From Azolla caroliniana (taxonomy: Eukaryota; Plantae; Polypodiophyta): 64,000 bases of DNA. The stretch lies in assembly GCA_043228905.1 (NCBI GenBank), contig JBHGNT010000017.1, forward strand, positions 10,354,001-10,418,000, given 5' to 3'. The first letter of the stretch is position 1; every line of letters starts with the position of its first letter. The translations under genes were made by a program, and so were the position numbers. Below, piece after piece: positions 9,860-64,000 of the stretch. The notes beneath the pieces are model-generated. The model was not told where the DNA came from and ran no database searches. It saw only the letters and a program-made list of their open reading frames with translations.

Positions 9860-10627
9860 TGTTGGGAGACAGGTCCCTCCGGATGGGAAGGGAGAAGAAC
9901 AGTGCTGATGAACAAACTCAGCCGAGGCCTGTCGGCCTCGGCCGAAACCGTATGACGAGTACCCGGCTACGGAGAGCCGGATGGTGCAGACCCAGTGAGA
10001 ACCGGATGAGGAGTACCCGGCTACGGAGAGTCGGATGTTGCAGACCCGGTGAGAACCGAATGAGGAGTACCCGGCTACAGAGAGCCGGATGGTGCAGAAC
10101 CGGTGAGAACTGGATGAGGAGTACCCGGCTACGGAGAGCCGGATGGTGTAGACCCGGTGAGGAGTGCTCACCGGATGAAGAGACATATTCGTAAATATGT
10201 TTCTGAGAGTCCATCATGGCTACATTTGTAAATAGCTGAAAAGTCATATTAGTATAAATATGACTTAGGGCAAACTTTTAGTAGTTGTAGTTATTTTCTT
10301 CTCTGCGTGAGATCAGAGCGCGTAACTGTGTACAAAGAGAGAGAGAGAGAGGAAGAGGTCGTTGCCTCAGTTGTAACCGCCGCCTATGGCGAAGATTGTG
10401 AGCACGAGATCGTTGCCTCCGTGAACTCACTGTTGTATATTCTAACATAGTGATAGTTTGCAGCCTGTGGGCTGCCGTGCTTTTTCCCTTAGTTTGGGTT
10501 TTCCACGTAAACATCTTGCATACTCTTCTCTTCTTCGTGTCGTACATTTATTTCCCGTTTTTCTGTGTATGATTCTAAGCTTGGTTGTGGCCGAGCCTTG
10601 CGTATAGGGAGCGTGCAGTTCCCGTCA
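9860..10627 (+). mobile_element. Solo LTR, copia family A, containing about four 54-bp tandem units
   Basis: TSD catct (9855-9859 / 10628-10632); homologous to 17-620; interrupts the RT of element 3 at LKKGII/SPS. Confidence 0.95.
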
Positions 10628-13567: not shown

Positions 13568-14050
13568 TAATTGGTGTTTTAGGAAATATATCCAATTTCC
13601 CAAATATTTCACACACCCCATTCCATTGTGCTCCTCATCCTTATATAGTGATGAGAGAGTCTTCACAATCCATGCTTTTTCTCTAACTATAGACTATATG
13701 CTTTATCTAACATGCTTTTTCTAACTTTAGTTTTCATGCACACTACATGTGCATGATTAGCTTTCTATCCCATCTTTTCTTTTAACTCGAGTGTGTATGC
13801 ATGAGTAACTTTTTGTACCATGCATATCTAGAATATTTACATGGGATAAAGTTTAGTATAACTTTAAAATTCATAATATGCTAGTATAGTGGTAAGGCTT
13901 AACATTATTAACATGGAGGTACAGGGTTTGAATCCTGCCCTATGTATGTAATATGTATTTTTTTTTAATATTCTCTCCTATTTACAAATATGTCTCTTCA
14001 TCCGGTTCCATCCGGTTATCTTTACCGGGTCCTCCTTACCGGTTCCTCCT
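13568..14050. repeat. Old LTR-like remnant with a tRNA-like A/B-box module
   Basis: Same order of CATG-rich tract, A box/B box, AT tract and ccgg repeats as the family C LTR read on its minus strand. No termini found. Confidence 0.45.
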
Positions 14051-19011: not shown

Positions 19012-19661
19012 GTGATCAGACGAACGCAAGAGAATCACACAAACGTCATAATCCTACCAAGTCCCACAGACTCAGACGGCGAGATGGAACACATGGTACT
19101 CTCGGAAGCGGCCAAGAAATGGTTCAAGCAACACAACTTGGAAGGGTTCCTAAGAATCGTCGAGGCACCTCCACACAGCGACGTGGAGAAAGTCATGCAG
19201 GAGATGATACGGAGGTCATCACAAAAGAGGCCATCCGTGCCATGACCGGCCTGCCAGAGGGCGGATTATTCTCGATCGACAACCCTTCACCGGAGATGCT
19301 CACGAAGTTCTTCGGTGAGTACTCCTTTGCCAGCAAGGCATACTGCACGCAAGGCAGCGAGGACGTTCTATTCCGAGAGGTTGCTCGTGTGTTTCATGAG
19401 TATGGGCATGTACACCCTCGACCCCCAGCTATGCCAAAGAACAGAGCCGGCTTTATTATAGCAACTTATGAGGGGGTACAGATGGATTGGCCGGTGATCA
19501 TCGCTGATAGTCTAGTGCGGCCATAGCTTCAGTAAAGGATGGCAAGAAGATGTGGACGGTGGTGGCGCAATGGCTCACTCTTTTAGCACCGCCGGTAGAG
19601 CCAATGCAGCCGAAGAAGCGGGGTAGACCGACTGAATCAACCCCCAACACCTCGTCAAAAA
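19012..19661 (+). pseudogene. N-terminal part of the extra 3' ORF of element D (unknown function)
   Basis: Sense-strand reading frame after pol, with frameshifts: ..ITKEAIRAMTGLP..YEGVQMDWPVIIADSL..; resembles accessory ORFs of Athila/Tat-type elements (inference). Confidence 0.65.
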
Positions 19662-20159
19662 GAGAAATAGACAACTAAATGTCAAGATATGAGGGTATAA
19701 AGTTTGTGAAAGGAAAAGAGAAAATTGTGATATATCCCACATAGGCACGACAAATATGGCTCTCATCATATATAAGGTAGAGCAAAAGATATTATCTTTG
19801 TGTCTGTGTGTGGAGCATAGAGAGTTCAAGGTAACTTGAACTAAGAGTGGAGGTGGGCTACCAAAACCGGACCGGCGATGGAGCCGGTGATCCGGCACCA
19901 GTGAGACACCGGCATCCGACGGCAATCCGGCGCCGGTGAGACGACGGCATCAGGCGAGGCACCGGTAACCGACGGCATCCGGTGGCGGCACCGGTATCCG
20001 GTAATGGCATCCAGCGCCGGTTAGATGACGACATCATCCGGCGGCGGCACCGGTATCCGGCGAGGCACTGGTAACCGACGACATCCGACGAACTGGCGTC
20101 CGACGACTAGATAAATAAATATATAAATATATATACATATATACATATACAAGGAAGGC

Positions 20160-20226
20160 AAGTAAGGATTTGAACCTTGCACCTCCGAGTTAGGAGTCAA
20201 TTTACTTACCATTAAGCCATGCCATT
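20160..20226 (-). promoter_or_regulatory. tRNA-like Pol III A-box/B-box module in LTR C (second copy 34232-34298)
   Basis: TGGCTTAATGG ... AAGG-TTCAAAT-CCTT, A-to-B spacing 43 nt. No convincing acceptor stem, so not called a tRNA gene. Confidence 0.7.
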
Positions 20227-20697
20227 TAGTTGAATTTATATTTCTATCATTGTAGTTTTACGTGTAAATTCTCATACATGAGAGCTAAAATGAGTGACAT
20301 GGTTATCATGCACCAAATGTAATACATAAGCGCCAAATGGCAAGCATGCATTTTATGCATGTCTTGTACCCTCACATGCATCATATGCATGAGAGCATTT
20401 GTAAAAGAAGGAAGGGGGAGGAGAAAAAACGGGTTTTTTTTTGGTTATGAAATTAAGAAGATGAAATTCGTTATCAAATTGATCATGTAACTTGTTTCTT
20501 AAATCCAAAGATAAAAGTTCAATCAATCTCTCTCAATCATTTAATCTCAACTTCTCTCTTTCACAATCTATCTTAAGTACTTTCTCGCCAAAGCTTGCAC
20601 CAAAGCTTGTACCGACTTTGAATCCTTCCGGTCCAGAACCCCGGCGGTTCCGCCTCACGATCCGCGCGTAGTGACGGATCTTCACGACATAATTAAG

Positions 20698-20714
20698 TGG
20701 TGAACCCGACGTGA
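20698..20714 (+). promoter_or_regulatory. Primer-binding site, tRNA-Trp (also 29561-29577 -, 37584-37600 +, 47159-47175 -, 50502-50518 -)
   Basis: TGGTGAACCCGACGTGA is complementary to the 3' end of plant cytosolic tRNA-Trp (..UCACGUCGGGUUCACCA). Confidence 0.9.
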
Positions 20715-20756
20715 AAGAGGCGGTAGGAAGGATCAAGTCGAGGTTAATACTTGGAG

Positions 20757-23344: not shown

Positions 23345-23788
23345 TAGATAGATAGATTATATTATCGTCTTCGGAGGTCAAATATGACCTATGAGACCAA
23401 AAATATTACATTTCACGTGATACGTGTGAAAGTGAGTAGTGACTCTCGATGTTCAAGAACTTTACCAATGAATGTTGCAATCGAGAGTGCACATTGTGGT
23501 TGTGAGAGGAATTCATGCAAAGATTGGGCTCGATCGAAGAGATGTGGAAAGCATGGTCGAATATGATCAAAGGTAGAGCATTGTATCAAAGTGTGATATT
23601 CAGACTCGCGAACTTGTTTAGGGCAAAGTGTGCATAGCCGACCACTCTCATCACTTGTACCCCAACGCCCTGTTTCACATCGCAATGCATGTGAGCTAAG
23701 TCGCATGGAAGCAATGGTTCGAATGAAAGATAACGGTATGGGCTCTAACATGTATGGATGTGTACGATTTCCCCGTTCCGCAAAGAAT
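23345..23788 (-). mobile_element. 5'-truncated non-LTR retrotransposon (LINE) 3' end
   Basis: Present in only one LTR of F; encodes RLSSHALRCETGRW..RLCTLC..ESEYHTLIQC (LINE C-terminal Zn-finger-like domain), short 3' UTR, (TCTA)n tail. Confidence 0.85.
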
Positions 23789-32500: not shown

Positions 32501-34758
32501 AAATGGATGGTGGATCTGGTCTCGATGCCAATGGGAGTGGGACAAATGAAGTACTTAGCGCTGGCAAGGGAAGACTTGACAAATCAAGTGGAAGGACGAG
32601 CCTTGACAAATAAGACGACTTCAGCCGTTTGCAAATTTCTGCTTGAAGAGGTTGTTTGCCGATATGGATGTGTAGGGAAGATAGTGGCCGACCGAGGGGA
32701 GTTGGACGCGCACGAAGCGACGAAGCTCTTCGAAAGACTAGGCGTGAAGCTCTCCCTCACGACTGCCTACAATCCGGAAGCGAATGGGAAGATCGAGCGA
32801 GGGCATGGACCTATCATTAAAGCCATCGTACGGGCATGCAATGGTTGAGTCGGGAATTGGCCATGACTATTACCCTATGCCTTGTGGGCCGATAGAACGA
32901 CACATAGCTCGGTGACAGGGTATATGCCGACAGAGCTTATGTATGGACAAAAGCCGATTATGCCCATCGAAAGGACGATCGCCTCATGGGTAGCGATACC
33001 GTGGGAGAACGAGATGAGCTGAGAAGAGTTATTAGCGGCGCAGATAAGGCAACTTGAAAGAAGACCTGAAGATTTAGAAAAAGCGCGAAAGATGATGGAG
33101 GCAGCCTGAGTAAAGAACAAAGTTCGGTTCGACAACACGCATCGACTTCGTCCCAAGAAGATTAAAGAAGGGGATTGGGTTTTGGTTTACGACAGCACCC
33201 TTGATCTTCAACACAGTACAACAAGGAAGTTCGCAAGAAGATGGTTCAGGCCGTATGTGGTGATAAGTGCCAACGATAATGCCACATACCACCTTGCGGA
33301 ACTAGACGGATCAAGGTTGGTCGTACCCATTGCGGGAAAAAGAGTAAAGATTTTCAAGAAAAGACAAAACAAGGATCTTGACCTCGATTACCTCGGTAAT
33401 GAACATAATAGGGCGGATATAAATGAAGACATGGAGGAATCTAATTGATCATCGTAGCCGAAATCTCACTTTCTCTCTTCTTGGCACGTACCGGAGGACG
33501 TGCGGTTTGGTGGGGGTGGATGTCGTGAAGATTTTCGGCAATAGTGTGAAAATCCCATAAAACGTACAAAATCGAGTATGAATTATATAATACAATAATT
33601 GTGAAGATAACATTTTAAATCAATTTAATAACTAAGTACAAAATGATGGAGGTTTCGAATGCACTTTATTACACGAGAAACGGACAACTAAATGTCAAGA
33701 TATGAGGGTATAAAGTTTGTGAAAGGAAAAGAGAAAATTGTGATATATCCCACATAGGCACGACAAATACGGCTCTCATCATATATAAGGTAGAGCAAAA
33801 GATATTATCTTTCTGTCTATGTGTGGAGCATAGAGAGTTTAAGGTAACTTGAACTAAGACTGGAGGTGCGCTAGCTACTCATAAAGGGTTTTCGCCAACC
33901 AAAACCGGACTGGCGATGGAGCCGGTGATTCGGCGGCATCCGGCGCCGGTGAGACGACGACATCCGGTGAGGCACCGGTAACCGACGGCATCCGGTGGCG
34001 GCACCGGTATCCGGCCACGGCGAGGCGGCGGCATCCGGTGCCGGTGAGATGACGGCATCCAGCGAGGCACCGGTAACCGACGGCATTCGGCGGCGGCACT
34101 GGTATCCGGCGGCAACCGGTGACGGCATCCGGCGAGGCACTGGTAACCGACGGCATCCGACGAACCGACGTCCGGCGACTAGATAAATAAATATATAAAT
34201 ATATATACATATATACATATACAAGGAGGGCAAGTAAAGATTCAAACCTTGCACCTCCGAGGTAGGAGTCAATTGACTTACCATTAAGCCATGCCATTTA
34301 GTTGAATTTATATTTCTATCATTGTAGTTTTACGTGTAAATTCTCATACACGAGAGCTAAAATGAGTGACATGGTTATCATGCACCACATGTAATACATA
34401 AGCGCCAAATGGCAAGCATGCATTTTATGCATGTCTTGTACCCTCACATGCATATGCATGAGAGCATCTATAAAAGAAGGAAGGGGGAGGAGAAAAAACG
34501 CGTCTTTTTTTTGTTATGAAATTAAGAAGAAGAAATTCGTTATCAAATTGATCGTGTAACTTGTTTCTTAAATCCAAAGATAAAAGTTCAATCAATCTCT
34601 CTCAATTGTTTAATCTCAACTTCTGTCTTTCCCAATCTATCTTAAGTACTTGCTCGCCAAAGCTCGCACCAAAGCTTGTACCGACTTTGAATCCTTCCGG
34701 TCCAAAACCCCGGCGGTTCCGCCTCACGATCCGCGCGTAGTGACGGATCTTCACGACA

Positions 34759-35038
34759 CCGATTCTCACCGGGTCTTGCGTTTCCGGGTACTCATCATCC
34801 GGTTCTCACCGGGTCTGCACCATCCGGCTCTCCGTAGCCGGGTACTCGTCATCCAGTTCTCACCGGGTCTGCAACATCCGGCTCTCCATAGCCGGGTACT
34901 CGTCATCCGGTTTTCACCGGGTCTTCCGTAGCTGGGTATTCCTCATCCGGTTTCGGCCTCGGCCTATCAGCCTCAGCCGAGTTTGCTCATCAATACTGTT
35001 CTTCTAACTTTCCATCCGGAGGGACCTGTTTCCTAACA
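34759..35038 (-). repeat. Partial copia family A LTR (target of element E), inserted in the extra ORF of D
   Basis: 54-bp units and terminus ..ggacctgtttcctaaCA, the reverse complement of the start of LTR 17-620. Confidence 0.9.
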
Positions 35039-45227: not shown

Positions 45228-46115
45228 TGTCGAGGAAATCCTCGTGTGTTCACAAAATGAAGCAGAACCATTGGAGTCCTGAATTGGAAGGATTTATAGT
45301 TTGTACTAGCTTTAGCGAGAAAGTATTTAAGATAGATTGAGAGAGAGAGAGAGATAGAGATTGAACCCTTGACTTCAATTTTTAGAGATGAGATACATCA
45401 CCAGTAGGATAACTAGATTTATTATTATTATTTTCTTGATCAGTATATAGTTCGCTTGATTAATTGATTGATTCTTTTTCTTTTTCCTCCACTCTTTTAT
45501 AGATGCCCCCATGCATATGATGCATGCGAGGGTGCAAGACATGCATGCAATGCATGTAACACATGAAATGTATGCGATACGTGTTTGCCATTTGGCGCTT
45601 ATGCATTACATGTGATGCATGATAACCATGTCAGTCATGCAAGCTCTCATATATGAGAATTTACATATGAAAAAGTATAATGATGGAAATACAACTTTTA
45701 AAGAAATGACTTGGCTTTGTGGTAAGTCAATTGTCAATTGGCTTTAAAGAAAAATTGAAACGAGAATCGGCAGGCCAAAATCAGTCAGAAAGCCGAAACA
45801 AGAGTCAGCTGGCTGAAATCGACCGAAAAGTTGAAATGGGAGTCGGCTGCCAAAATCGGTCAGAAAATCGAAACAGGATTCGGTCGAGTGATAGTCGACC
45901 GAATAGAAGTTCAGACGAATATACAAATATATATATACACAATCATATATATATTTGAGATAACTTGGAATATATATAGAGAGAGTCGTATTAGCTGCAT
46001 ATATATGTGGGATGACTCACTGAGAAAAAACAGTGAGGGAAGCGCGAAAGTGAACCCTTCTTGGTTTTCTCCTTTTCAAGTGATTTTCACACCGTTGCCG
46101 AAAATCTTCACGACA
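45228..46115 (-). mobile_element. Solo LTR related to family C
   Basis: Minus-strand start TGTCGTGAAGATTTTCGGCAA identical to 33521; 4-bp TSD acgt/atgt; interrupts H1 gag. Confidence 0.88.
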
Positions 46116-47445
46116 ATGTGCCCCGTCACCGCCTCCTCCATTATCCTCTTCATTCCACCCTGACCAGTGTTCATTTCTAGGGGCCTTCGCATTTCGCTCG
46201 CGTGTACCACATTGTTCCTTAGCGCCTTGACGAGGCCCACACAATCCATCCGGATGTGGTCAACACCATCACACCACATGCACCTAAGGCCATTAGGCGG
46301 GTGCCGGTCATGCGATTGACCCTCACCATTACTTTGAGCTTGAGCAATTTGAAGGTTGTGCACCACCTTCATTAGCTCGTCCAGCTGCACACCCCCGGAT
46401 AGTCCCTCGACCACGTTGGTCGGTACTAGGCCCAAGTCGGCGGCCCGCCTTCTCGCCTTGTTCGACCAAGTCGGCACCTCCCTTGTTACTCCTATAGTGG
46501 TTGGGCTGGTTGATGTCAATCCTTCATTGTTCCATTCATGCCGTTTCTCATAATGGTTGCACACCCTCTTGACCACGACCGAGTCGGTCGTAAGGCCATC
46601 GTTCGTTTCCAAGAGGAGACCCACCTTCTCATGATCGTGTGAGTTGAACGACTTGATGAATAATAGGATCTTTCTTGTATCAAGAATGGTCTAGTCTAGC
46701 ACCGAGAGTCGTGCGAATTGTTTCTCGAATTCGAGGAGAAGCCATGTTGTATTTCGTCCTTTTCCCTAGAGCTCGATCCACTCCATTAGCTCCTTCGTCG
46801 ACAATCGACACGAGTCGTCGAAGTCGTACCTTTCAAGGAGGCAATCCTTGAACTCCAACCAATTGCAACAGTTGGTCTGAATCTCGAGCACCTCAGCGTG
46901 GATGTTCAATATGATGTTTCGGGCAAATTTGGACAATGAACTATCGTCTGGAATGTTCCTCATTAGCATTTCGGCCTTGAAGGCCTCTAGCTAACTTGTG
47001 ACGCCCTCTCTGCTGAATCAGCCTGTCGTGCCGATGATGGTTTCGATGGCCCTATCGAGGCAAGTTGAGCTCTCCCAAGCATTCTTAAGGCGGTCAACTC
47101 CTACCGCCATGGCCTTTGCTAGCTCACCTCCCCTCATTGTAGCTACCCTATCGCCATTTCACGTCGAGTTCACCAATAGATGTCACGGAAATTGGCTGGT
47201 TGTGGGTCGGCTACGGCGGGACTTTCAGAACCAAGAATAAAAGATAGAGTGATGGAAGAAGGATATAAGGGAACATGAGAAGAAAGGAATGAAATGCTAA
47301 GAGAATAATGGGTGTATTAAGATAGAGAAAGAAAGAGAATGGATACAACATATGTAATGAGAGTTAAAGATTGGTGTTGATTCGAATTGATTTGAGAATA
47401 CATGTATGCCCTTATTTATAGGTTCCTATAGAATAGCTTAGAGAT

Positions 47446-47500
47446 TTCTATAATGTTCTAGAATGTTCTAGGACATTCTAGAATATTCTAGAATGATCTA
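47446..47500. promoter_or_regulatory. Heat-shock-element array in LTR H (also 48563-48640, 50789-50843, and 62540-62563 in the chromovirus LTR)
   Basis: Alternating nTTCn/nGAAn at 5-bp phase: TTCtaGAAtgTTCtaGGAcaTTCtaGAAtaTTCtaGAA, about 25 bp upstream of a minus-strand TATA. Confidence 0.7.
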
Positions 47501-47650
47501 AAGTTTTTACAATAATCAATCTAATACTAAAGTAGCTTTTATCCTCTCATATGACAATCAACTATCTTAATGGTTGAGGTTTTCAATTATGGATTACAAG
47601 GTTTGAGGTTCAAGTGCGGGCGATGCCATAATGGTCATGTGTCCATGACA

Positions 47651-48558
47651 GGGACCATCGGGGGGGTCTCAGACCAAGGAGCCTAAGAATAAGCAGATAC
47701 TAAGCTTGCGGTGACCTATCCGGCTCCGTCTCTAGAGTCCGTTCTTGAGCAAACGGGCACGTAGGACCATTTCCGATTTGGCCTTGTCGTCGGATTCTGG
47801 AAGATGAGCTCATGGGATCACAAGCTCAAGTAGGTATGTGCTGAACAGAGGAGGGAAGAGACAACACTTTCGCGAATGAGAAGACGGAGAGAGGATTGTG
47901 AATGCAACCGGATAGACCATAACCGGAGCAGAGGCCTCCCACCCACTATCTGACTGAGCAAAACAAGAAGCTTGCACTACTTCAGAGACCAATTTGGCAA
48001 CACCTTCCCCTCCTAAAATGATGATCACCTCACACCAACACATTCCCTCCTTTTTATATCACCCAAGGAGTGGGAGGGGTGATGTTACATCAGGCTATTA
48101 TGACAACCGTTTTTGTCAAAGATTCTCCCACGATTTTCTCGTCTCACACACTATCATTCCCCTCTTTTTGTAGGATCATAAAAGTACCTATTAAATATTC
48201 TACCTTGTACTTATTTATACTTCAATATTTACATTTGTTTGTACAATAGACCACGTTCATGCGCATACATGCACTCCATGTGTTCACACACCCGAAGGAC
48301 CTTTCTCCTAGTGGCCGGAATCCTCCATGATAGTGCAGTGGATGTCGATTTTGGATATGCCTATTCTAGCATTAAAGGCAACAAAGGAAAAAGTGGGCAC
48401 GCGAGATGTCGAAACATCTGACATGACAATGACTACTAGAGATCCCAGAAGAAAAGTGCTAGGAAGAGATCCCTCCAAGAGCTGAACCATAAACAATTGT
48501 ATCAATGGTAGAGCCAATCGTAGGGAATGCCATAGCACCATAGGTAATAGAGGGGCTA
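47651..48558 (-). repeat. LTR-like block I, duplicated at 50995-52033
   Basis: Direct similarity between the two blocks with indels; minus-strand tataaaaaggagg; possible TG start at 52033. Confidence 0.65.
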
Positions 48559-48748
48559 TGGCATTCTAGAATGATCTAGGACATTTTAGAACATTCTAGA
48601 ATGATCTTGGACATTCTAGAACATTCTAGAATGATGTAGAGTCTTTACAATAATCAATCAATACAGAAAGTAGCTTTTATCCTCTCATATGACAATAAGC
48701 TATCTTAATGGTTGAGGTTTTCAATTATGGGTTACAAGGTTGAGGTTC

Positions 48749-50470
48749 AATTAATCGAGCTTAGCACATGGGCGGGTAGTCTTGACGTGACGACGAAGCA
48801 ACCATACTTGGTCACCAACCTTGAAAGGAGACTTAAGACGATGTTGATCGACATTGGTCTTATGGTGTGCTTGCGATTTTTGAAGATGTGAAGATAAATC
48901 AAACTGGATTTGTTGTAGTCGGTGGAGGTGATGCGCCACACTAGGGTTTTGTGACACCTCAAGGAGATCCAGGATACACCATCGAAGGTGGTTGCTAGTG
49001 TAGGCAAAGAAAGATGTAACTTTGGTAGAAGAGTGTACCGTGTTGTTGTAGGCAAACTCGGCAAGATGTAAAATATTGCTCCAATTGTCTTGTTGATAAC
49101 TGATGAAACATCAAAGATATTGCTCTAGTGTTTGATTTGTGCACTCTGTTTGTCCGTCAGTTTGTGGATGATATGCGAAGAGAGTTTGTAGGAGATTTTG
49201 AGGCCTGCCTATACGTGGTAAGTCCAAAAGTGTGAGATAAATTAAGGACCTCGATCACTAATAATATCATTTGGGAGACCATGATGGCGAAACACCTGAC
49301 CCATAATGAGATCTGTAGTTTCTTCACTACTAATGGTCTTTACACGGTACAAAACGTGCCATCTTTGTGAACCGATCCACTAATGTTAAAATACTATCAA
49401 AGCCTTTGGAAGGTGGCAGATCCGTAATGAAATCCATAGAATAGACTGCCATGTCTTGCTGGGAGGTGGTAATGGTTGTAGTAAGCCATAAGGATGATGC
49501 TTGGGTATTTTGGCACGATAACATGTGTCACATGTGCGAACGTAATCTTCGACAAATTTTTGCATGTGAGGCCACCAAAATGAATGTTTCACGAGCTCAA
49601 CGGTCTTGGCAATACCAAAATGTCCAGCCATGGGGGCATCATGACAATGTTCTAACACTTGAAGTCGGGGTGATCTGTTAGGGACGTAAAGGAGATTCTT
49701 GTAGAAGAGTAAGCCATCTTGTGACTTGAAGTCCTGATAATTGTGAGATGACCCTTGCAATGTGGAGCAAGTTGGACGGCTTGAACCAATGTGGGCTAAG
49801 ACATCCTTAACGAAATCATTAGAGTGAAGTTGTTGCCGAATAGTGTCAAGAACGCTAGAACCAAGTGGCGTGGCATAAATTATTGTTGTTTGTATCTTTG
49901 ATGACCCGAGGAGAATCTGCTTTTGATTGTCAAAGGCCGAACCTCTAGGTCGAAGAGCTAGATACGAACGCCGAGACAAAGCATCTGCTTTCCCTTGTTG
50001 TTTTCGGGGGTGAAAAATGATCTTGAAATCGAAACGCGTTAGAAATTGGGCCCACCGAGCTTGTCATCTATTTAATGCTCGAGCTGTTTGAAAATATGTG
50101 AGATTTTTATGATCACTATCAATGATAATCTGATGAGGCGATCCTTCTAGAAAATGACGCCATTGATGGAATGAGTTGACCACAACTAGTAACTCCTTGT
50201 CATGCACCTCACAGTTTATCTCCGAAACAATAAATTTTCTCGAGTGAAACGCGACTGGATGAGTCTGCCCATCCTTGCTTGGTTGCGATAGGATACTCCC
50301 CAATGCAAAGTCTAATGCATCCGCCTCAATGGTAAATGGCTTTTCGGGATCAATATGCGCTAGGATAAGTGTTGATGTGAATGCCTCTTTCAGCTGAGTA
50401 AAAGCCTTGTTCGCTTCAATACTCCAAAAAAATGCTTGATTTTTCTTTGTGAGCTGGGTGAGGGGCAATT
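48749..50470 (-). pseudogene. pol: Tcn1-like chromovirus RH-integrase fragment
   Basis: [84 protein letters not shown]. Confidence 0.88.
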
Positions 50471-50476
50471 CACAAT

Positions 50477-50994
50477 TCATTGTAGCTCCCCTACCGCCAT
50501 TTCACGTCGGGTTCACCAATAGATGTCACGGAAATCGGCTGGTTGCGGGTCGGCTGTGGCGGGACTCTTAGAACCAAGAATAAAAGATAGAGTGATGGAA
50601 GAAGTATATAAGGGAACACGAGAAGAAAGGAATGAAATGCTAAGAGAAGAATGGGTGTATTAAGATAGAGAAAGAAAGAGAATGGATACAAGATATGTAA
50701 TGAGAGCTAAAGATTGGTGTTGATTCGAATTGATTTGACAATACATGTATGCCCTTATTTATAGGTTCCTATAAAATAGCTTAGAGATTTCTATAATGTT
50801 CTAGAATGTTCTAGGACATTCTAGAACATTCTAGAATGATCTAAAGTTTTTACAATAATCAATCTAATACAAAAAGCAACTTTTATCCTCTCATATGACA
50901 ATAAGCTATCTTAATGGTTGAGGTTTTCAATTATGGATTATAAGGTTCGAGGTTCAAGTGTGGGTGATGCCATAATGGTCATGTGTCCATGACA
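50477..50994 (-). mobile_element. Second LTR H (50524-50994) with Trp PBS and short leader
   Basis: Close copy of 47134-47650. Confidence 0.88.
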
Positions 50995-52033
50995 GGGACC
51001 AATGAGTCTAAGAATAAGCAGCTACTAAGCTTGCGGTGACCTATCCGGCTAGGTCTCTAGAGTCTGTTATTGAGCACACGGGCTCGTAGGACCATTTCCA
51101 ATTTGGCCTTGTCATCGAATTCTGGAAGATGAGCTCATGGGCTGACAAGCTCAAGTAGGTATGCGCTGAACAGAGGCGGGAAGAGACAACACCTTCCCGG
51201 ATGAGAAGACAAAGAGAGGATTGTGAACGCAACCGGATAGACCATAACAAACTTATGTACACACAACACACTAGACACAACAATACCAAGTAATCGATTA
51301 AATACTGTGAAAGAATACAAGGTCAGCTTCGGGCCGAGAAACAGACATTTGAGCTTAGGAAACACTCCGAATGGTGAGTCTCTTGTCGGGAGCACACGGG
51401 GGCTTCCTTCGCGAGCAGAGGCCTCCCACCCACTAACCGATTGAGCAAAACAAGAAACTTGCACTACTCCAGAACCCGATCTAGCAACACCTTCCCCTCG
51501 TAAATGAAGATCGCCTCACACCAACAGATTACCTCCTTTTTATATTACCCAAGGAGAGGGAGGGGTGACGTTACATCAGGCTGTTATGACAACCGTTTCT
51601 GTCAGAGATTCTCCCACGAGTAGGATCATAAAAGTATCTATTAAATATTCTACCTTGTACTTATTTATACTTCAATATTTACATTTGTTTGTACAATAGA
51701 CCAAGTTCATGCGCATACATGCACTCCATGTGTTCATACACACCCAGAGGACCATTCCCCTAGTGCCCGGAGTCCTCCATGATAGTGTAGTGCATGTCGA
51801 TTTTGGATATGCCTATTTTGGCATTAAAGGCAACAAAGGAAAAAGCGGGCATGGGAAATGTTGAAGCATCCGATATGACAACGACTACTAGAGATCCCAA
51901 AAGAAGAGTGCTAGGAAGAGATCCCTCCAAGAGCCGAACTAGAAACAACTGTATCAATGGTAAAGCCAATCGTAGGGAATGCCATAGCACCATAGGTAGA
52001 AGAGGGCTTATCAATTGCACACTTTCAATTACA

Positions 52034-54088: not shown

Positions 54089-54827
54089 TGACATGAACTA
54101 CACGCTCCGATGAACAACACTCGGCCACAACCGAGTCTAAAATCAAACACAGAAAACGGATAATGAACGCACGACACAAAGGAGAGAAGAGTACACAGGA
54201 TGTTTAACGTGGAAAACCCTGAGAGGGAAAAACCACGGGAGTTCACAGACTCCAAACTATCACTATATCACAATGATTACAATCAGTAAGCTCACGGAGG
54301 CAACGACCTCGTGCTCACGATCTTCGCCACAGGCGGCAGTTACAACAGAGGCAACGACCTCTTCCTCTCTCTCTCTCTCTCTGTGTACACTGTTATGCGC
54401 TCTCTGATCTAGCGCCAACAAGAATGACAACACCTCTCTAAGTTTGCCCTAAGACATATTTATACTAATATGAATTTTCGGCTATTTACAAATATAGCCT
54501 CGATGGACTCTCTGAAAACATATTTACGAATATGTCCCTCCATCCGGTGAGCACTCCTCACCAGGCCTGCATCACCCGGCGCTTGCCGGGTACTCCTCAT
54601 CCGGTTTTCACTGGGTCTTCCGTAGCCGGGTACTCGTCATCCGGTTCTCACCGGGTCTTCATCATCCAGCTCTTGCCAGGTACTCGTCATCCGGTTCTCA
54701 CCGGGTCTTCATCATCCAGCTCTTGTCGGGTACTCGTCATCCGGTTCTCACCAGGTCTTCCGTAGCCGGGTACTCCTCATCCGGTTCTCACCGGGTCATC
54801 CCATCCGGAGGGACCTGTTTCCTAACA
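54089..54827 (-). mobile_element. Solo LTR, copia family A
   Basis: TG...CA termini, perfect TSD aatca (54084-54088 / 54828-54832). Confidence 0.95.
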
Positions 54828-54850: not shown

Positions 54851-55601
54851 TGACGGGAACTCAACGCTCCCTTTGCGCAACGCTCGGCCACAACCGAGCT
54901 TAGGATCATACACAGAAAACGGGAAACAAATGCATGACACAAAGGAGAGAAAAGGTAGACAGGATGTTTACGTGGAAAATCCAAACTAAGGGAAAAACCA
55001 CGGCACCCCACAGGCTGCAAACTATCACTATATTGGAATGTACAACACAGTGAGTTCACGGAGGGAACGACCTCGTGCTCACGATCTTCGCCACAGGCGG
55101 CGGTTACAACAGAGGCAGCGACCTCTTTCTCTCTCTCTCTCTCTGTACACTGTTACGTGTTCACTCTTCTTCTACGCCAACAAGAATGATAACCACAACT
55201 ACACATGTTTGCCCTAAGTCATATTTATACTAATATGACTTTTCGGCTATTTACAAATATAGCCTCAATGGGCTCTCAGAAACATATTTACGAATATGTC
55301 TCTTCCTCCGGTTCTCACCGGGTCTGCGTCATCCGGCTCTCCGTAGCCGGGTGCTCCTCATCCAGTTCTCACCGGGCCTACACCATCCGGCTCTCCGTAG
55401 CCGGGTACTCCTCATCCGGTTCTCACCGGGCCTGCACCATCCGGCTCTCCGTAGCCGGGTACTCCTCATTCGGTTCTCACCGGGCCTGCACCATCCGGCT
55501 CTCCGTAGCCGGGTATTCCTCATTCGGTTTCTGCCTCGGCCGAGATTGTTCATTGGCACTGTTCTTCTCCCTTCCCATCCGGAGGGACCTGTCTCCCAAC
55601 A
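54851..55601 (-). mobile_element. Solo LTR, copia family A
   Basis: TG...CA termini, perfect TSD aaaac (54846-54850 / 55602-55606). Confidence 0.95.
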
Positions 55602-57610: not shown

Positions 57611-57783
57611 TGACATCCTTCCAATCACAATAATTGGAAAAGGGTACTCAGTGATTGAGTATCTGAGAGAGAGAGAGAGAGAGAGAGAGAGTAGGAACCG
57701 AATCACTATAAGGGGAGGAGTACAACAAGATGATTCAAGGCAATGACCTTGACCTCTTCTTCGTCGACTAACAACTACAGAGT

Positions 57784-57822
<39 letters not shown>

Positions 57823-59064
57823 ACACACACACTTAGTTACAGAGGCAACGACCACGTCAGTAACTATAGAACTATATTCAGCTAATGATTCACACATTCA
57901 TAAAGTTTTCCCTAGTTGTATTTATACTAATACAACTTTCTGGGCTATTTACAAATATAGTCTCCCGAATCGGCTATTAAATTGATTTATCAATTTCCGA
58001 TTATTCGATTTTCGACCTCGGCCGAATTTCCTGTCAACTCTCTATTCGATTTGGCTCATACTCTTCCCATCCCGAGGGCCTTGTTTCCCAACAAACTCCC
58101 CCTTCACTCCATGATGGGGTATTTCTCCAATCCGACTCTTAATTGGCACACATTCAACCTCTCTACAGACATCACCTTCGTCAGCATGTCTGACCCGTTG
58201 TCGTTCATGTGGATCTTTACTAGAGCAATCTCCTTTTCTTCTACTCAATTTCGGAGCCAATGGTATCTTCTTTGGATGTCCTTAGTCCTCGAGTGATAGG
58301 CTGCATTGTCCGCAAGGTGGATGACACTCTGGTTATCACAGTGGAGTCGGAATTTGTCTTGCCGAATCCTCAACTCTCCAACGAACTCCTTCATCCATAT
58401 ACTCGGCTTCCGTGGTCGACAACACCACGGCCTTATGCAACCTCGACTGCCATGAACAACTCCTCTTGCATAAGTCATCATGTATCTGGACGTGGATCTG
58501 TTGTATCTGCATCAGCCTACATGTTTGAATCGGTATAACCTTCTTGTGTGGGGTTACCTGAGCCAAGTCAAAGACACACTCAAGGTGCCTCTCAGGTATC
58601 GAAGTATCCATTTGACTGCCATCCAATGTTCTTTGTTGGGATTTCTCCTAAATCGGATGATGATTCCGATTGCATAACCAATGTTTGGCATAGTGCAAAC
58701 CATTGCATACATTAGACTTCTGACTATTGAGGCATAGGGGACCTTCATCATCTCAACTTTTTCTGTGTTTGCTTTTGGACATTGGTTTTTGCTCAGTTTA
58801 GCTTGCAATTTGTCGGTACTGTTGAGTCGAGTAGTTTCGAATTATACATGTTGAATCTCTAGAGCACCTTTGTTATGTATTTCTCTTGTGATAGCCATAA
58901 CAACTTCTTTGTTTGATCACGAACAATGTGCATTCCTAGGATTTGCTTTGCCAGACTCATATCCTTCATTGTGAACGACCTGCTCAAGGCCTTCTTCAAA
59001 CTTCCGATTTTCCTCGGGTCCTATCCGACAATCAGCATGTCATCAACATACAATAGGAGGAGGA
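57611..59064 (-). mobile_element. Ty1/copia 3' fragment: RT C-half, RNase H, PPT, 3' LTR 57611-58093 (family A relative)
   Basis: LLLYVDDMLI, MKDM..AKQILGM, VPYAS.V.SLMYAMVCT.P, LSTTEAEY, LHCDNQS..H.RTK.I; PPT aagggggag. Confidence 0.9.
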
Positions 59065-62278: not shown

Positions 62279-64000
62279 TGTCAGGAATAGTACTAAAACA
62301 GAGAGAGAATTAGTACTACAGAAGGGAAGTACTATTAGTACTAAGAGGACGGGACTGTGTAAGACTCCCGAGAGAGAGAAAGAGAGAAGAGGAGAGAGAG
62401 AGAGAGAGATGATGATAATAGATGATATATTATGTGAAGAGCAAGTACAAAAGCTATGAGACTTAAGACTGGCGTTGAACCAATTTGGTTCAAAATAATT
62501 CCTAGTGCCTTCTTTTATAGTGTTCTTAGGAGTAAGCCTGAAGCTTCTAGAATGTTCCAGAGAAATATGGAATAAACATTAATTTCCTATAATAAAGCTT
62601 AAATGAAAATAATATCCTATGTATTACAATAGATGGTATAATGGTCAAGAGCTCGACCCATATAACATAAGGTCATGGGTTCAAGTCTTGCCATATCATG
62701 ACACTATCCCCCCCTTAAAACGACGAGTGGAACGAGTCGGCACTGATTGCTTACCGGGTTTGTTCGGATACTTTCGGTGGAAATAATCAAGAAGATCCTG
62801 AGCATTGGCGACATGCTCGACGAGTTCCCAAGTATGTTGCGAACAAGTTTGGAATCGAGGAGGGCAACAACTTCATACTCCGGGCCGGCGTCCAACTCAA
62901 GCGGGGGCGGCGGTGGTGTAACACGATTGGGAATAGCGTTTGCTTTATAAGGTTCAAGAAGAGAACTATTGAAAACCGGATGTATCTGAAGATGCGGAGG
63001 GAGATCAAGGCGGAACGTGACATCATTAACCTTACCAGCAATACGGAAAGAACCGAGTCGTCGATAATCCAACTTGTCGCACGGTCGAGTAGTCTTGATG
63101 TGATGACAGAAAAGTCATACTCGATCTCCGATGGCAAAAGAGGAGGAAAGCCGATGAAGATCTGCATAAGTCTTTTGTGTGTGTTGAGCATGACGAAGAT
63201 GAGTAGAGAGATCCAACTGAATTTTACGTAGCCTCTCCAAATGATCCTCGGCACAAGGATTGATAGGTAGCTCCGGGGTGTCGATCACTGACCAGGGAGG
63301 ATGAGAACCGGTATAAGCGTAAAATGGGGAGACCCGAGTCGAGGAGTGAACAACATTATTATACGCAAACTCCACAAAGTGGAGAATCTCCGCCCAATCT
63401 TCTTGTTGATAACTCAGAAAACACCGAAGATATTATTCCAGCGTTTGGTTTGCTCGTTCCGCCTGCCCATCGGTCTGGGGATGGTAGACGGAGGACAGGT
63501 TGCAAGAGACCTCGAGCATCTTGAAGAGATGCTGCCAAAATTTGGAAATGAATTGAAGCCATGATGCTGAAATACTTCACGCATGACAAGGGCGGCGGTT
63601 TCCTCGCTAGTGATGACCTTAGTACACAGCACAAAATGTGCCATCTTAGTATATCGATCGACGACGGTTAAGATAGCATGGAACCCCTTCGAGACTGGCA
63701 GATCTGTGATAAAATCAAGACAAATAGACTGCCATGGCTTACTTGGAATCAGTAAGGCTTCCAACAAGCCATATGGATGGTGTCGTGGCATCTTTGCTCG
63801 ACAGCAAGCATCACAGGTCCGAACGTAGTCGTCGACAAAACGTCGCATATGGGACCACCAAAAAGATCGTTGAGCTAGATCCAACGTCTTAGTACTATCG
63901 AAATGTCCCGCCATATGGGTGTCGTGACAACTTTGGACAATTTGAAGGCGACAGGAGCAATTGGGGACATCTACAAGCTTTTTAAAGAATAACAAACCAT
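62279..64000 (-). mobile_element. Tcn1-like chromovirus 3' part: integrase, partial chromodomain, PPT, 3' LTR 62279-62703
   Basis: CHD..MAGHF..WW, LDFITDLP, VDRYTKMAHF, EFAYNN, IHPVFNSSLL, PEYEVVALLDS; PPT aagggggggatag; TGTCA...TGACA termini. Confidence 0.92.
62627..62698 (+). promoter_or_regulatory. tRNA-like A-box/B-box module at the outer end of the chromovirus LTR
   Basis: TGGTATAATGG (62634) ... aggtc atgGGTTCAAGTCT (62678), spacing 44 nt. Confidence 0.7.

What the first reader, a model, noticed from the sequence alone, without database searches (positions are those of the whole stretch)
20160..20226. Antisense tRNA-like Pol III modules are a recurring built-in part of gypsy LTRs
Seen: A-box/B-box pairs at tRNA spacing (43-44 nt) in LTR C (20166-20219, 34238-34291), LTR H (47563-47617, 50907-50961, 48701-48750), the chromovirus LTR (62634-62688) and a remnant at 13882; A box only at 45712. 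The two C copies read GGTTCAAATCC and GGTTTGAATCT, the two alternative CpG-decay products of canonical GGTTCGAATCC. In all three oriented families the module is antisense to the element and upstream of the Pol II TATA. Established: A/B boxes bind TFIIIC, tDNAs act as chromatin barriers in yeasts and mammals, and Cassandra elements carry 5S-derived Pol III promoters in their LTRs. Inference: these LTRs carry a tDNA-mimic insulator or outward Pol III promoter that protects or regulates the LTR in heterochromatin. I do not recall this being described, but cannot check.
Basis: partly seen in the sequence, partly recalled or inferred. Interest (0 to 1): 0.78.

Follow-up and report, generated by a model that had tools for sequence, protein, structure and literature searches.

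The report
tRNA-derived cassettes in plant retrotransposon LTRs
Several jumping-gene families of a seed-free plant carry, in their end repeats, a worn tRNA-derived piece that keeps the two RNA polymerase III promoter boxes and faces away from the element's own promoter; it likely serves as an optional docking site for the tRNA transcription machinery, many related families lack it, and tRNA pieces inside such repeats were already described in 2024.

Summary
A/B-box pairs sit at every cited position, at tRNA spacing and above chance. They are tRNA-derived: beyond the boxes they keep the variable-loop AGGT in exact register, but they cannot fold as tRNA (7-11 of 21 pairs; chance about 8). In family C (Phygy-type gypsy) the cassette is family-wide, and a sister copy has perfect boxes.

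- Only some families carry it: 5 clear antisense in-LTR hits among 48 independent upstream regions, 0 of 31 internal regions. Family B and two C-related LTRs lack it.
- H and the chromovirus share one LTR type, so they are not independent.
- Sense-oriented tRNA-like cassettes also occur.
- Within family C the boxes are no better conserved than the adjacent flank, and the B-box CpG decayed in 3 of 4 copies.
- Nothing here tests binding or transcription.

Best reading: a captured tRNA cassette, moved between lineages with U3, that likely acts as a dispensable TFIIIC/Pol III site (0.45); neutral relic is close behind (0.3). The closest known kind is Helenus (Kojima 2024), which is sense-oriented and non-coding. 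The scan noted tRNA relics in retrotransposons of other genomes before. New variant of a known kind.

The parts
20160..20226 (-). tRNA-derived cassette in U3 of LTR C (focal module): A box 20219-20209, B box 20176-20166, variable-loop AGGT, nominal anticodon CCT; no cloverleaf
19680..20689 (+). Upstream LTR of element C (Phygy-type); preceded by the same 3'-internal end as the downstream LTR, so probably a tandem or recombined junction
20698..20715 (+). Primer-binding site; tRNA-Trp type by match to the Phygy description (assignment inferred)
20227..20300 (-). AT-rich region upstream of the cassette (79% AT in the first 43 nt, CAA at -6); the best-conserved U3 segment among four C-family copies
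33693..34758 (+). Downstream LTR of element C, followed by CCGA (NCGN); TATA-like motif at 34468; 5.0% diverged from the upstream LTR
34232..34298 (-). Cassette copy in the downstream LTR C (B box in the TG state)
13875..13947 (+). Cassette in a remnant LTR (element on the minus strand by its TATA at 13640 and by its PBS-bearing homologue L018), hence antisense
45712..45722 (+). Lone A box, antisense, in a C-related LTR (minus-strand element, TATA at 45494); B box lost
45357..45411 (-). Weaker SENSE A/B cassette downstream of the TATA in the same LTR; conserved in L084
47181..47650 (-). LTR H copy 1 (chromovirus-type U3 with TTCTAGAA repeats, then a Phygy-type PBS and gag); cassette 47563-47617 on the plus strand near the LTR 5' end
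50524..50994 (-). LTR H copy 2, followed by a PBS and then chromovirus-type RNase H-integrase; cassette 50907-50961 (+)
48567..48750 (-). Truncated LTR H fragment fused to a chromovirus-type integrase end; cassette 48701-48750 (+), cut after the B-box core
62279..62703 (-). 3' LTR of a chromovirus (PPT at 62704-62714, TATA at 62512); cassette 62634-62688 (+) ends about 15 nt from the LTR terminus

Best explanation
The module is a tRNA-gene-derived cassette, with A box, B box, tRNA spacing and variable-loop AGGT but no cloverleaf, that lies antisense in U3 of a subset of Phygy-type and chromovirus-type LTRs and likely works at the DNA level as an optional TFIIIC/Pol III docking site back to back with the Pol II promoter. 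Shown: tRNA ancestry, loss of RNA structure, position and orientation, family-wide presence in C, patchy distribution, and H and chromovirus sharing one U3 type. Inferred: capture once or a few times, then spread between lineages by U3 exchange; TFIIIC binding in copies with intact boxes (L046, the focal copy, the chromovirus copy); a local opening or boundary effect on the LTR promoter, or outward short Pol III transcripts; and loss or decay in most families and in aged copies, so it is not needed for replication.
For: Between five LTR-type representatives, identity is 0.64 in the A box and 0.73 in the B box, against 0.41 in the spacer without AGGT and 0.29 in the 3' flank (the boxes are partly circular, as modules were found by them). 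Cloverleaf pairs: 7-11 of 21 in 11 modules against 18-20 in two real tRNA (pseudo)genes. L046 has perfect A and B boxes and the poorest stems. Across 77-572 laid contigs per DNA run, the only A-box variants at 4% or more are at two degenerate positions (20212, 20214) and move toward consensus; six spacer positions are polymorphic (counts too small for significance). The tolerated CA state, not the TG state, is shared by all copies of H, the chromovirus copy and L008/L083. Upstream regions are 72-81% AT, with CAA at -6 to -10 in 6 of 11 copies, features listed for plant tRNA genes in PMC13578239 (passages). Similarity to other repeats starts and stops at the module edges (loose ends), and L008 matches C only across the module (87.5% over 56 nt). 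Module-bearing elements are scattered on a quick gag tree, and H joins a chromovirus-type U3 to a Phygy PBS.
Against: It is absent from most families: no hit in 7 B-family loci whose LTR start is visible, nor in L057 and L086, which each share one end with LTR C and appear full-length. Within four C copies the invariant fraction is 0.82 (A box), 0.73 (B box) and 0.81 (spacer), against 0.89 for the adjacent flank. The module differs by 9.3% between the two C LTRs, against 5.0% overall. The B-box CpG is decayed in 3 of 4 copies, against a 12% per-copy rate across the LTR. Both full H copies have G at invariant position 61, and L018 and L083 are decayed. There is no consistent terminator: first T4 at +11 to +22 in 4 of 11 copies and over +100 in 7. 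Sense cassettes exist (L062/L049, 45411/L084, weakly L043).
Confidence: 0.45

Rival explanations
1. Neutral relic: an old tRNA or tRNA-SINE head landed in an ancestral U3, is copied passively with the LTR, and now does nothing; apparent box conservation reflects how modules are found.
For: Most families lack it. It is no better conserved than its flank in family C. The CpG decays freely. The H boxes are broken in a shared way, and L018 and L083 are decayed. A simple-repeat TA tract follows the module in C, as in short retroposed tRNA heads.
Against: Boxes, spacing and AGGT survive between LTR types whose neighbouring U3 no longer aligns. A-box variation is confined to tolerated positions. A high-coverage sister contig has perfect boxes.
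Confidence: 0.3
2. Independent insertions of a dispersed tRNA-derived SINE into different LTRs.
For: The C and L008 modules are 87.5% alike while their flanks do not align. The distribution on the gag tree is patchy. Kojima 2024 proposes SINE insertion as the origin of Helenus.
Against: No target-site duplication is visible by inspection around any copy. In the chromovirus and H LTRs the cassette ends 15-35 nt from the LTR terminus, leaving no room for a SINE body. Loose ends at the module edges come from few, mostly concordant contexts (1-18 contigs, agreement 0.59-1.0), unlike the LTR end (98-118 contigs, agreement 0.35-0.38) (many rows not shown). A profile search of the window and 126 loci found no clear free copy.
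Confidence: 0.12
3. RNA-level second primer site: in the element's RNA the antisense cassette in the 3' U3 is complementary to a tRNA and would bridge the genome ends through the primer, as the 3' PBS does in Ty3 and Drosophila Gypsy.
For: It explains antisense orientation and U3 location directly. Precedents: Ty3 bipartite PBS in U3 (PMC5371799 passages) and the Gypsy 3' PBS (PMC1635307 passages).
Against: The primer T-stem deduced from the window PBS matches the modules at only 1-3 of 5 positions, and its 3' arm at 3-5 of 12. Nominal anticodons are CCT, CTT, ATT, ATG and ATA, none the Trp anticodon. The cassette also sits in a chromovirus LTR, a clade reported to be mostly self-priming (PMC6317226; this copy's 5' end is outside the window). 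The D arm could not be compared, because no tool supplied the full primer tRNA.
Confidence: 0.08
4. Chance matches to two short motifs in AT-rich LTR DNA.
For: The sense modules and the antisense hits in L049 and L084 are near the shuffle range.
Against: Five held-out antisense hits score 14-40 at p<=0.01, with none in 31 internal regions. AGGT is in exact register.
Confidence: 0.02

Closest known systems
Helenus / TRIMp3 (Kojima 2024, PMC10886601; whole main text read; supplement passages)
   Same: tRNA-derived sequence inside LTRs, conserved around boxes A and B, not a functional tRNA, isotype unclear, not complementary to the PBS. The paper also states that 'not a few LTRs' in Repbase contain part of a tRNA, and has one lycophyte family.
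   Different: Helenus are short non-coding TRIMs. In the four LTR consensuses I saw in the supplement the tRNA part reads in sense, as a proposed promoter for the element's own RNA. Here the hosts carry gag/pol (8-9 kb class), the main cassette is antisense and upstream of a Pol II TATA, so it cannot make the genomic RNA, and it is shared between Phygy-type and chromovirus-type LTRs.
Cassandra and Ajax (5S-derived Pol III promoters in TRIM LTRs; as described in PMC10886601)
   Same: A Pol III internal promoter captured in an LTR.
   Different: 5S type-1 promoter in sense that drives (Cassandra) or is proposed to drive (Ajax) the element's transcript; non-autonomous.
Phygy clade of Ty3/gypsy (Neumann et al. 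2019, PMC6317226; passages, supplement row)
   Same: Elements C and B have the Trp-type PBS, NCGN flanks and no extra domain; about 8.6 kb is typical of the clade.
   Different: I saw no mention of LTR-internal tRNA modules in the passages read. Clade membership was not tested by an RT tree against reference Phygy.
Ty3 bipartite PBS and Drosophila Gypsy 3' PBS (PMC5371799, PMC1635307; passages)
   Same: tRNA-complementary sequence near the 3' end (in U3 for Ty3) of a gypsy-type RNA.
   Different: Those are 11-12 nt boxes complementary to the cognate primer. This is a whole tRNA-length relic that does not match the primer's T stem or 3' arm.
tDNA and TFIIIC-site barriers of yeasts and mammals (seen only as reference titles in PMC13578239; otherwise recalled)
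   Same: A/B boxes as a DNA-level signal beside heterochromatin.
   Different: Host chromosomal elements with measured activity; nothing is measured here, and no plant LTR case turned up in one search.

Membership tests
Helenus / TRIMp3 | tRNA-derived sequence with A and B boxes inside the LTR | tested here: met
Helenus / TRIMp3 | Short non-coding TRIM (under about 1.3 kb) | tested here: not met
   Host elements carry gag, RT, RNase H and integrase remnants
Helenus / TRIMp3 | Cassette oriented to transcribe the element (sense) | tested here: not met
   Main cassette is antisense; only the secondary cassettes (45411, L062/L049) are sense
Helenus / TRIMp3 | Pol III transcription from the cassette | not testable with these tools
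   No raw RNA reads on offer
Functional tRNA gene | Cloverleaf fold recognised by ARAGORN or the Rfam tRNA model | tested here: not met
tRNA-derived SINE | Dispersed copies with target-site duplications and a tail | tested here: inconclusive
   No TSD seen and few flanking contexts, but no whole genome was available
Bipartite (3') primer-binding site | Complementarity to the cognate primer's T arm or acceptor arm | tested here: not met
Bipartite (3') primer-binding site | Complementarity to the primer's D arm | not testable with these tools
   Full primer tRNA not retrieved
tDNA/TFIIIC chromatin barrier | TFIIIC occupancy and barrier activity | not testable with these tools
   Only an indirect sign, and it is negative: the B-box CpG decayed in 3 of 4 copies
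Phygy (host element C) | tRNA-Trp-type PBS and NCGN target site | tested here: met
   PBS at 20698; CCGA after 34758; criteria (the Trp label for this PBS is inferred)
Phygy (host element C) | RT-RH-INT phylogeny with reference Phygy | not tested
   Only similarity hits: metagenome proteins up to 73% over most of the query, Riccia about 50-58%

The most novel reading that the evidence does not exclude
Protein-coding gypsy retrotransposons of seed-free plants carry a portable, tRNA-mimicking TFIIIC cassette that is swapped between unrelated lineages (Phygy and chromovirus) and faces away from the Pol II promoter, with sense cassettes on the far side of the TATA in some families, so that the element brings its own chromatin boundary into heterochromatin.
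Probability: 0.2. Interest if true: 0.75.

Novelty: new variant of a known kind. Interest (0 to 1): 0.4.

Why it matters
If the cassette binds TFIIIC, it would show autonomous plant retrotransposons borrowing the tRNA machinery as a regulatory part rather than as their promoter. It would also give a high-copy natural test bed for tDNA-type barriers in plants, for which my searches found no LTR case. If it is a relic, it still matters for annotation: thousands of A/B-box tRNA look-alikes ride in these LTRs, and they mark U3 exchange between distant lineages.

Tried and rejected
No whole genome is held and the metagenome contigs could not be extended, so there is no genome-wide census. Related-locus scans of viral contigs found nothing; the six viral PBS matches gave no gag hit and lacked the LTR-end pattern. 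Sequencing runs: no RNA holder listed. Two contigs of a run guessed to be RNA cover the module; it may be DNA, so I do not use it. B-box alleles could not be read from either lay. In one search no variant was listed within about 30 nt of either end, although position 20235 is known to vary; the box lies next to a skipped repeat. The absence of B-box rows is therefore not evidence. Attempts to fetch the primer tRNA gave nothing or chance matches; a paper search for its 3' end gave small-RNA papers that I did not open. The P. patens TE paper's supplements held none of the terms searched. A plasmid search with the module gave only weak unannotated matches. Folding gave no tRNA-like fold (only the chromovirus copy had z = -2.9). 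The gag tree is a quick tree of short, unequal fragments; rows L082, L083 and L047 are long-branch self-hits and were disregarded. Dropped from the 8 antisense hits before counting 5: L063 (a real tRNA-Arg outside the LTR), L049 and L084-antisense (poor boxes, not homologous to the module). An embedded tRNA-like sequence in a retroviral U3-R is recalled only; one search did not retrieve it. My impression that module C resembles Trp, Lys or Arg tRNA arms is recalled and untested.

Full report
Setting. The window is nested retrotransposon DNA from a seed-free land plant. Integrase relatives are metagenome proteins and, among named sources, Riccia (about 50-58%) and Adiantum (partial); moss, liverwort or fern is not settled. 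No genome is held. Element C (LTRs 19680-20689 and 33693-34758, plus strand) has a PBS at 20698 and is followed by CCGA. Both fit Phygy, described with tRNA-Trp PBS in 81% and NCGN target sites (PMC6317226, passages and one supplement row).

Observation. Every cited A/B pair is present at the stated place and spacing, with the stated B-box variants. ARAGORN and Rfam see no tRNA in the window. For an unbiased sample I scanned metagenome contigs for the PBS, not the module. This gave 120 loci of an estimated 420, of which 87 passed an LTR-end filter and 47 had 400 nt or more upstream; one more was added by hand, giving 48. A matrix trained on six window modules gave p<=0.01 hits in 8 of 48 upstream regions antisense, 2 of 48 sense, and 0 of 31 internal regions on either strand. 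Five antisense hits are true in-LTR modules 409-564 nt from the PBS (L008, L018, L046, L059, L083). L063 is a real tRNA-Arg outside the LTR, and L049 and L084-antisense are doubtful. Some upstream regions hold only part of an LTR (for example L032), so 5 of 48 understates the share of whole LTRs.

What it is. Aligned to two real tRNA (pseudo)genes from the loci, the modules sit in register. They form 7-11 of 21 cloverleaf pairs (chance about 8) against 18-20 for the tRNAs. Across five LTR types, identity is 0.64 (A box), 0.73 (B box), 0.41 (spacer without AGGT) and 0.29 (3' flank), and the variable-loop AGGT is invariant. The box figures are partly circular; AGGT is less so. L046 has perfect boxes with the CG intact and poor stems. 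So this is a tRNA relic kept, if at all, at the promoter level. In family C it is family-wide: thousands of contigs per run lie on the LTR, and depth over the module is like that over the rest. Similarity to other repeats begins and ends near the module edges in a few mostly concordant contexts, unlike the very diverse LTR end (929 and 79 rows not shown).

How general. The module occurs in C (with L046, L059 and the 45712 remnant), L008/L083, the 13882 remnant with L018, and H with the chromovirus. H and the chromovirus LTR are homologous beyond the module, while C, L008 and the remnant align weakly or not at all next to it. That makes two to four lineages, too few to prove an orientation rule. 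It is missing from 7 B-family loci whose LTR start is visible and from L057 and L086. On a quick gag tree the carriers are scattered. H joins a chromovirus-type U3 to a Phygy PBS and gag in one copy, and flanks a chromovirus-type pol in another; this points to U3 exchange (inference). Sense cassettes also exist. Strict B boxes occur 4 times in sense against 0.73 expected (1 of 100 shuffles; two hits are one family and one is the U5-end motif). L062 has AGGTT plus a T loop in register downstream of its TATA, and the 45712 LTR has a weaker sense cassette at 45411 that is conserved in L084.

Signs for and against function. For: in the visible part the only A-box variants at 4% or more are at two degenerate positions, while six spacer positions are polymorphic (not significant on these counts). 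The tolerated CA state is shared in H, the chromovirus copy and L008/L083. Upstream DNA is 72-81% AT, with CAA at -6 to -10 in 6 of 11 copies (features from PMC13578239 passages). Against: among four C copies the boxes (0.82, 0.73 invariant) do not beat the spacer (0.81) or the upstream flank (0.89). The B-box CpG has decayed in 3 of 4 copies against 12% per copy across 61 LTR CpGs, so it was not shielded from methylation, with the caveat that a state may be inherited from a master copy. H has G at position 61; L018 and L083 are decayed; terminators are inconsistent. B-box allele frequencies could not be read from the lays.

Mechanism. Because the cassette is antisense and about 115-235 nt upstream of the TATA, it cannot make the element's RNA. 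I take as most likely an optional TFIIIC/Pol III site back to back with the Pol II promoter, affecting local chromatin or giving short outward RNAs (0.45; binding and effect are inferred). A neutral relic is close behind (0.3). Independent SINE insertions (0.12) lack TSDs and, in H and the chromovirus, room. A second primer site as in Ty3 or Drosophila Gypsy (PMC5371799, PMC1635307, passages) would explain the orientation, but the modules do not match the T stem or 3' arm deduced from the PBS, and their nominal anticodons are not that of Trp (0.08).

Comparison and novelty. Kojima 2024 (PMC10886601, whole main text; supplement passages) describes Helenus, TRIMs with tRNA-derived A/B boxes in their LTRs, including one lycophyte family, and notes that many Repbase LTRs hold part of a tRNA. 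The Helenus LTRs I saw read in sense. The present case fails two Helenus features (coding hosts, antisense) but works from the same raw material. Searches found no description of antisense A/B cassettes in Phygy or chromovirus LTRs. The library lacks most subscription journals, Repbase reports and preprint supplements, where such notes could sit. Earlier scan notes report tRNA relics in retrotransposons of other genomes but no sequence look-alike. Verdict: real, a new variant of a known kind, function unproven; interest 0.4.

Noticed in passing
L063:1150-1224: A tRNA-Arg(CCG) gene (Rfam 59 bits) lies about 200 nt outside the 5' LTR of a B-family element, pointing away from it.
   Followed up: partly
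L041:2244-3042: Tandem array, period about 370 nt, of three decayed tRNA copies that look like initiator tRNA-Met, upstream of a B-like element. With L063, 2 of 48 upstream regions hold tRNA genes, which may hint at insertion near tRNA genes or at tDNA satellites.
   Followed up: partly
window 47446-47500, 48562-48639, 50789-50843, about 62545-62560: TTCTAGAA repeats (10-nt period) just upstream of the TATA in LTR H, and one copy in the chromovirus LTR; they resemble heat-shock elements (recalled label).
   Followed up: no
window 20280-20400 and the equivalent U3 of L008, L083, L018, L057, L086: Clusters of CATG/CATGCA motifs between the cassette position and the TATA, in carriers and non-carriers alike; they resemble RY elements (recalled label).
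   Followed up: no
window 47181-52006: LTR H is chimeric: one copy leads into a Phygy-type gag, another into chromovirus-type RNase H-integrase through a Trp-type PBS. Both are preceded by the same 0.9-1 kb segment with no coding match, ending without a purine tract.
   Followed up: partly
window 19658-19679 and 33671-33692: Both C LTRs are preceded by the same purine-biased end (also seen in L046), suggesting tandem elements sharing LTRs; it differs from the G-rich tract before the B LTR and in L026, L032 and L083.
   Followed up: partly
L062 (412 and about 260 nt upstream of the PBS) and L049: Tandem sense tRNA-like cassettes downstream of the TATA (two in L062, one seen in L049), placed like a Helenus-type promoter in an LTR whose relative L049 is followed by gag.
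   Followed up: partly
window 23348-23788: An insertion of about 440 nt interrupts the left LTR of element B; its minus-strand frame gave no Pfam hit.
   Followed up: no
window 9946-10161, 34784-34953, 54585-54801, 55300-55529: A repeat family with 50-54 nt tandem units rich in CCGG, present at several places and with no A/B module.
   Followed up: no
window 57652-57823: GA and CT microsatellites flanking a short spacer form a hairpin that draws spurious miRNA-family matches.
   Followed up: no
window 9188 (-): Borderline matrix hit (20.4; shuffle maximum 18.5) with a poor B box inside a coding region; probably chance.
   Followed up: no
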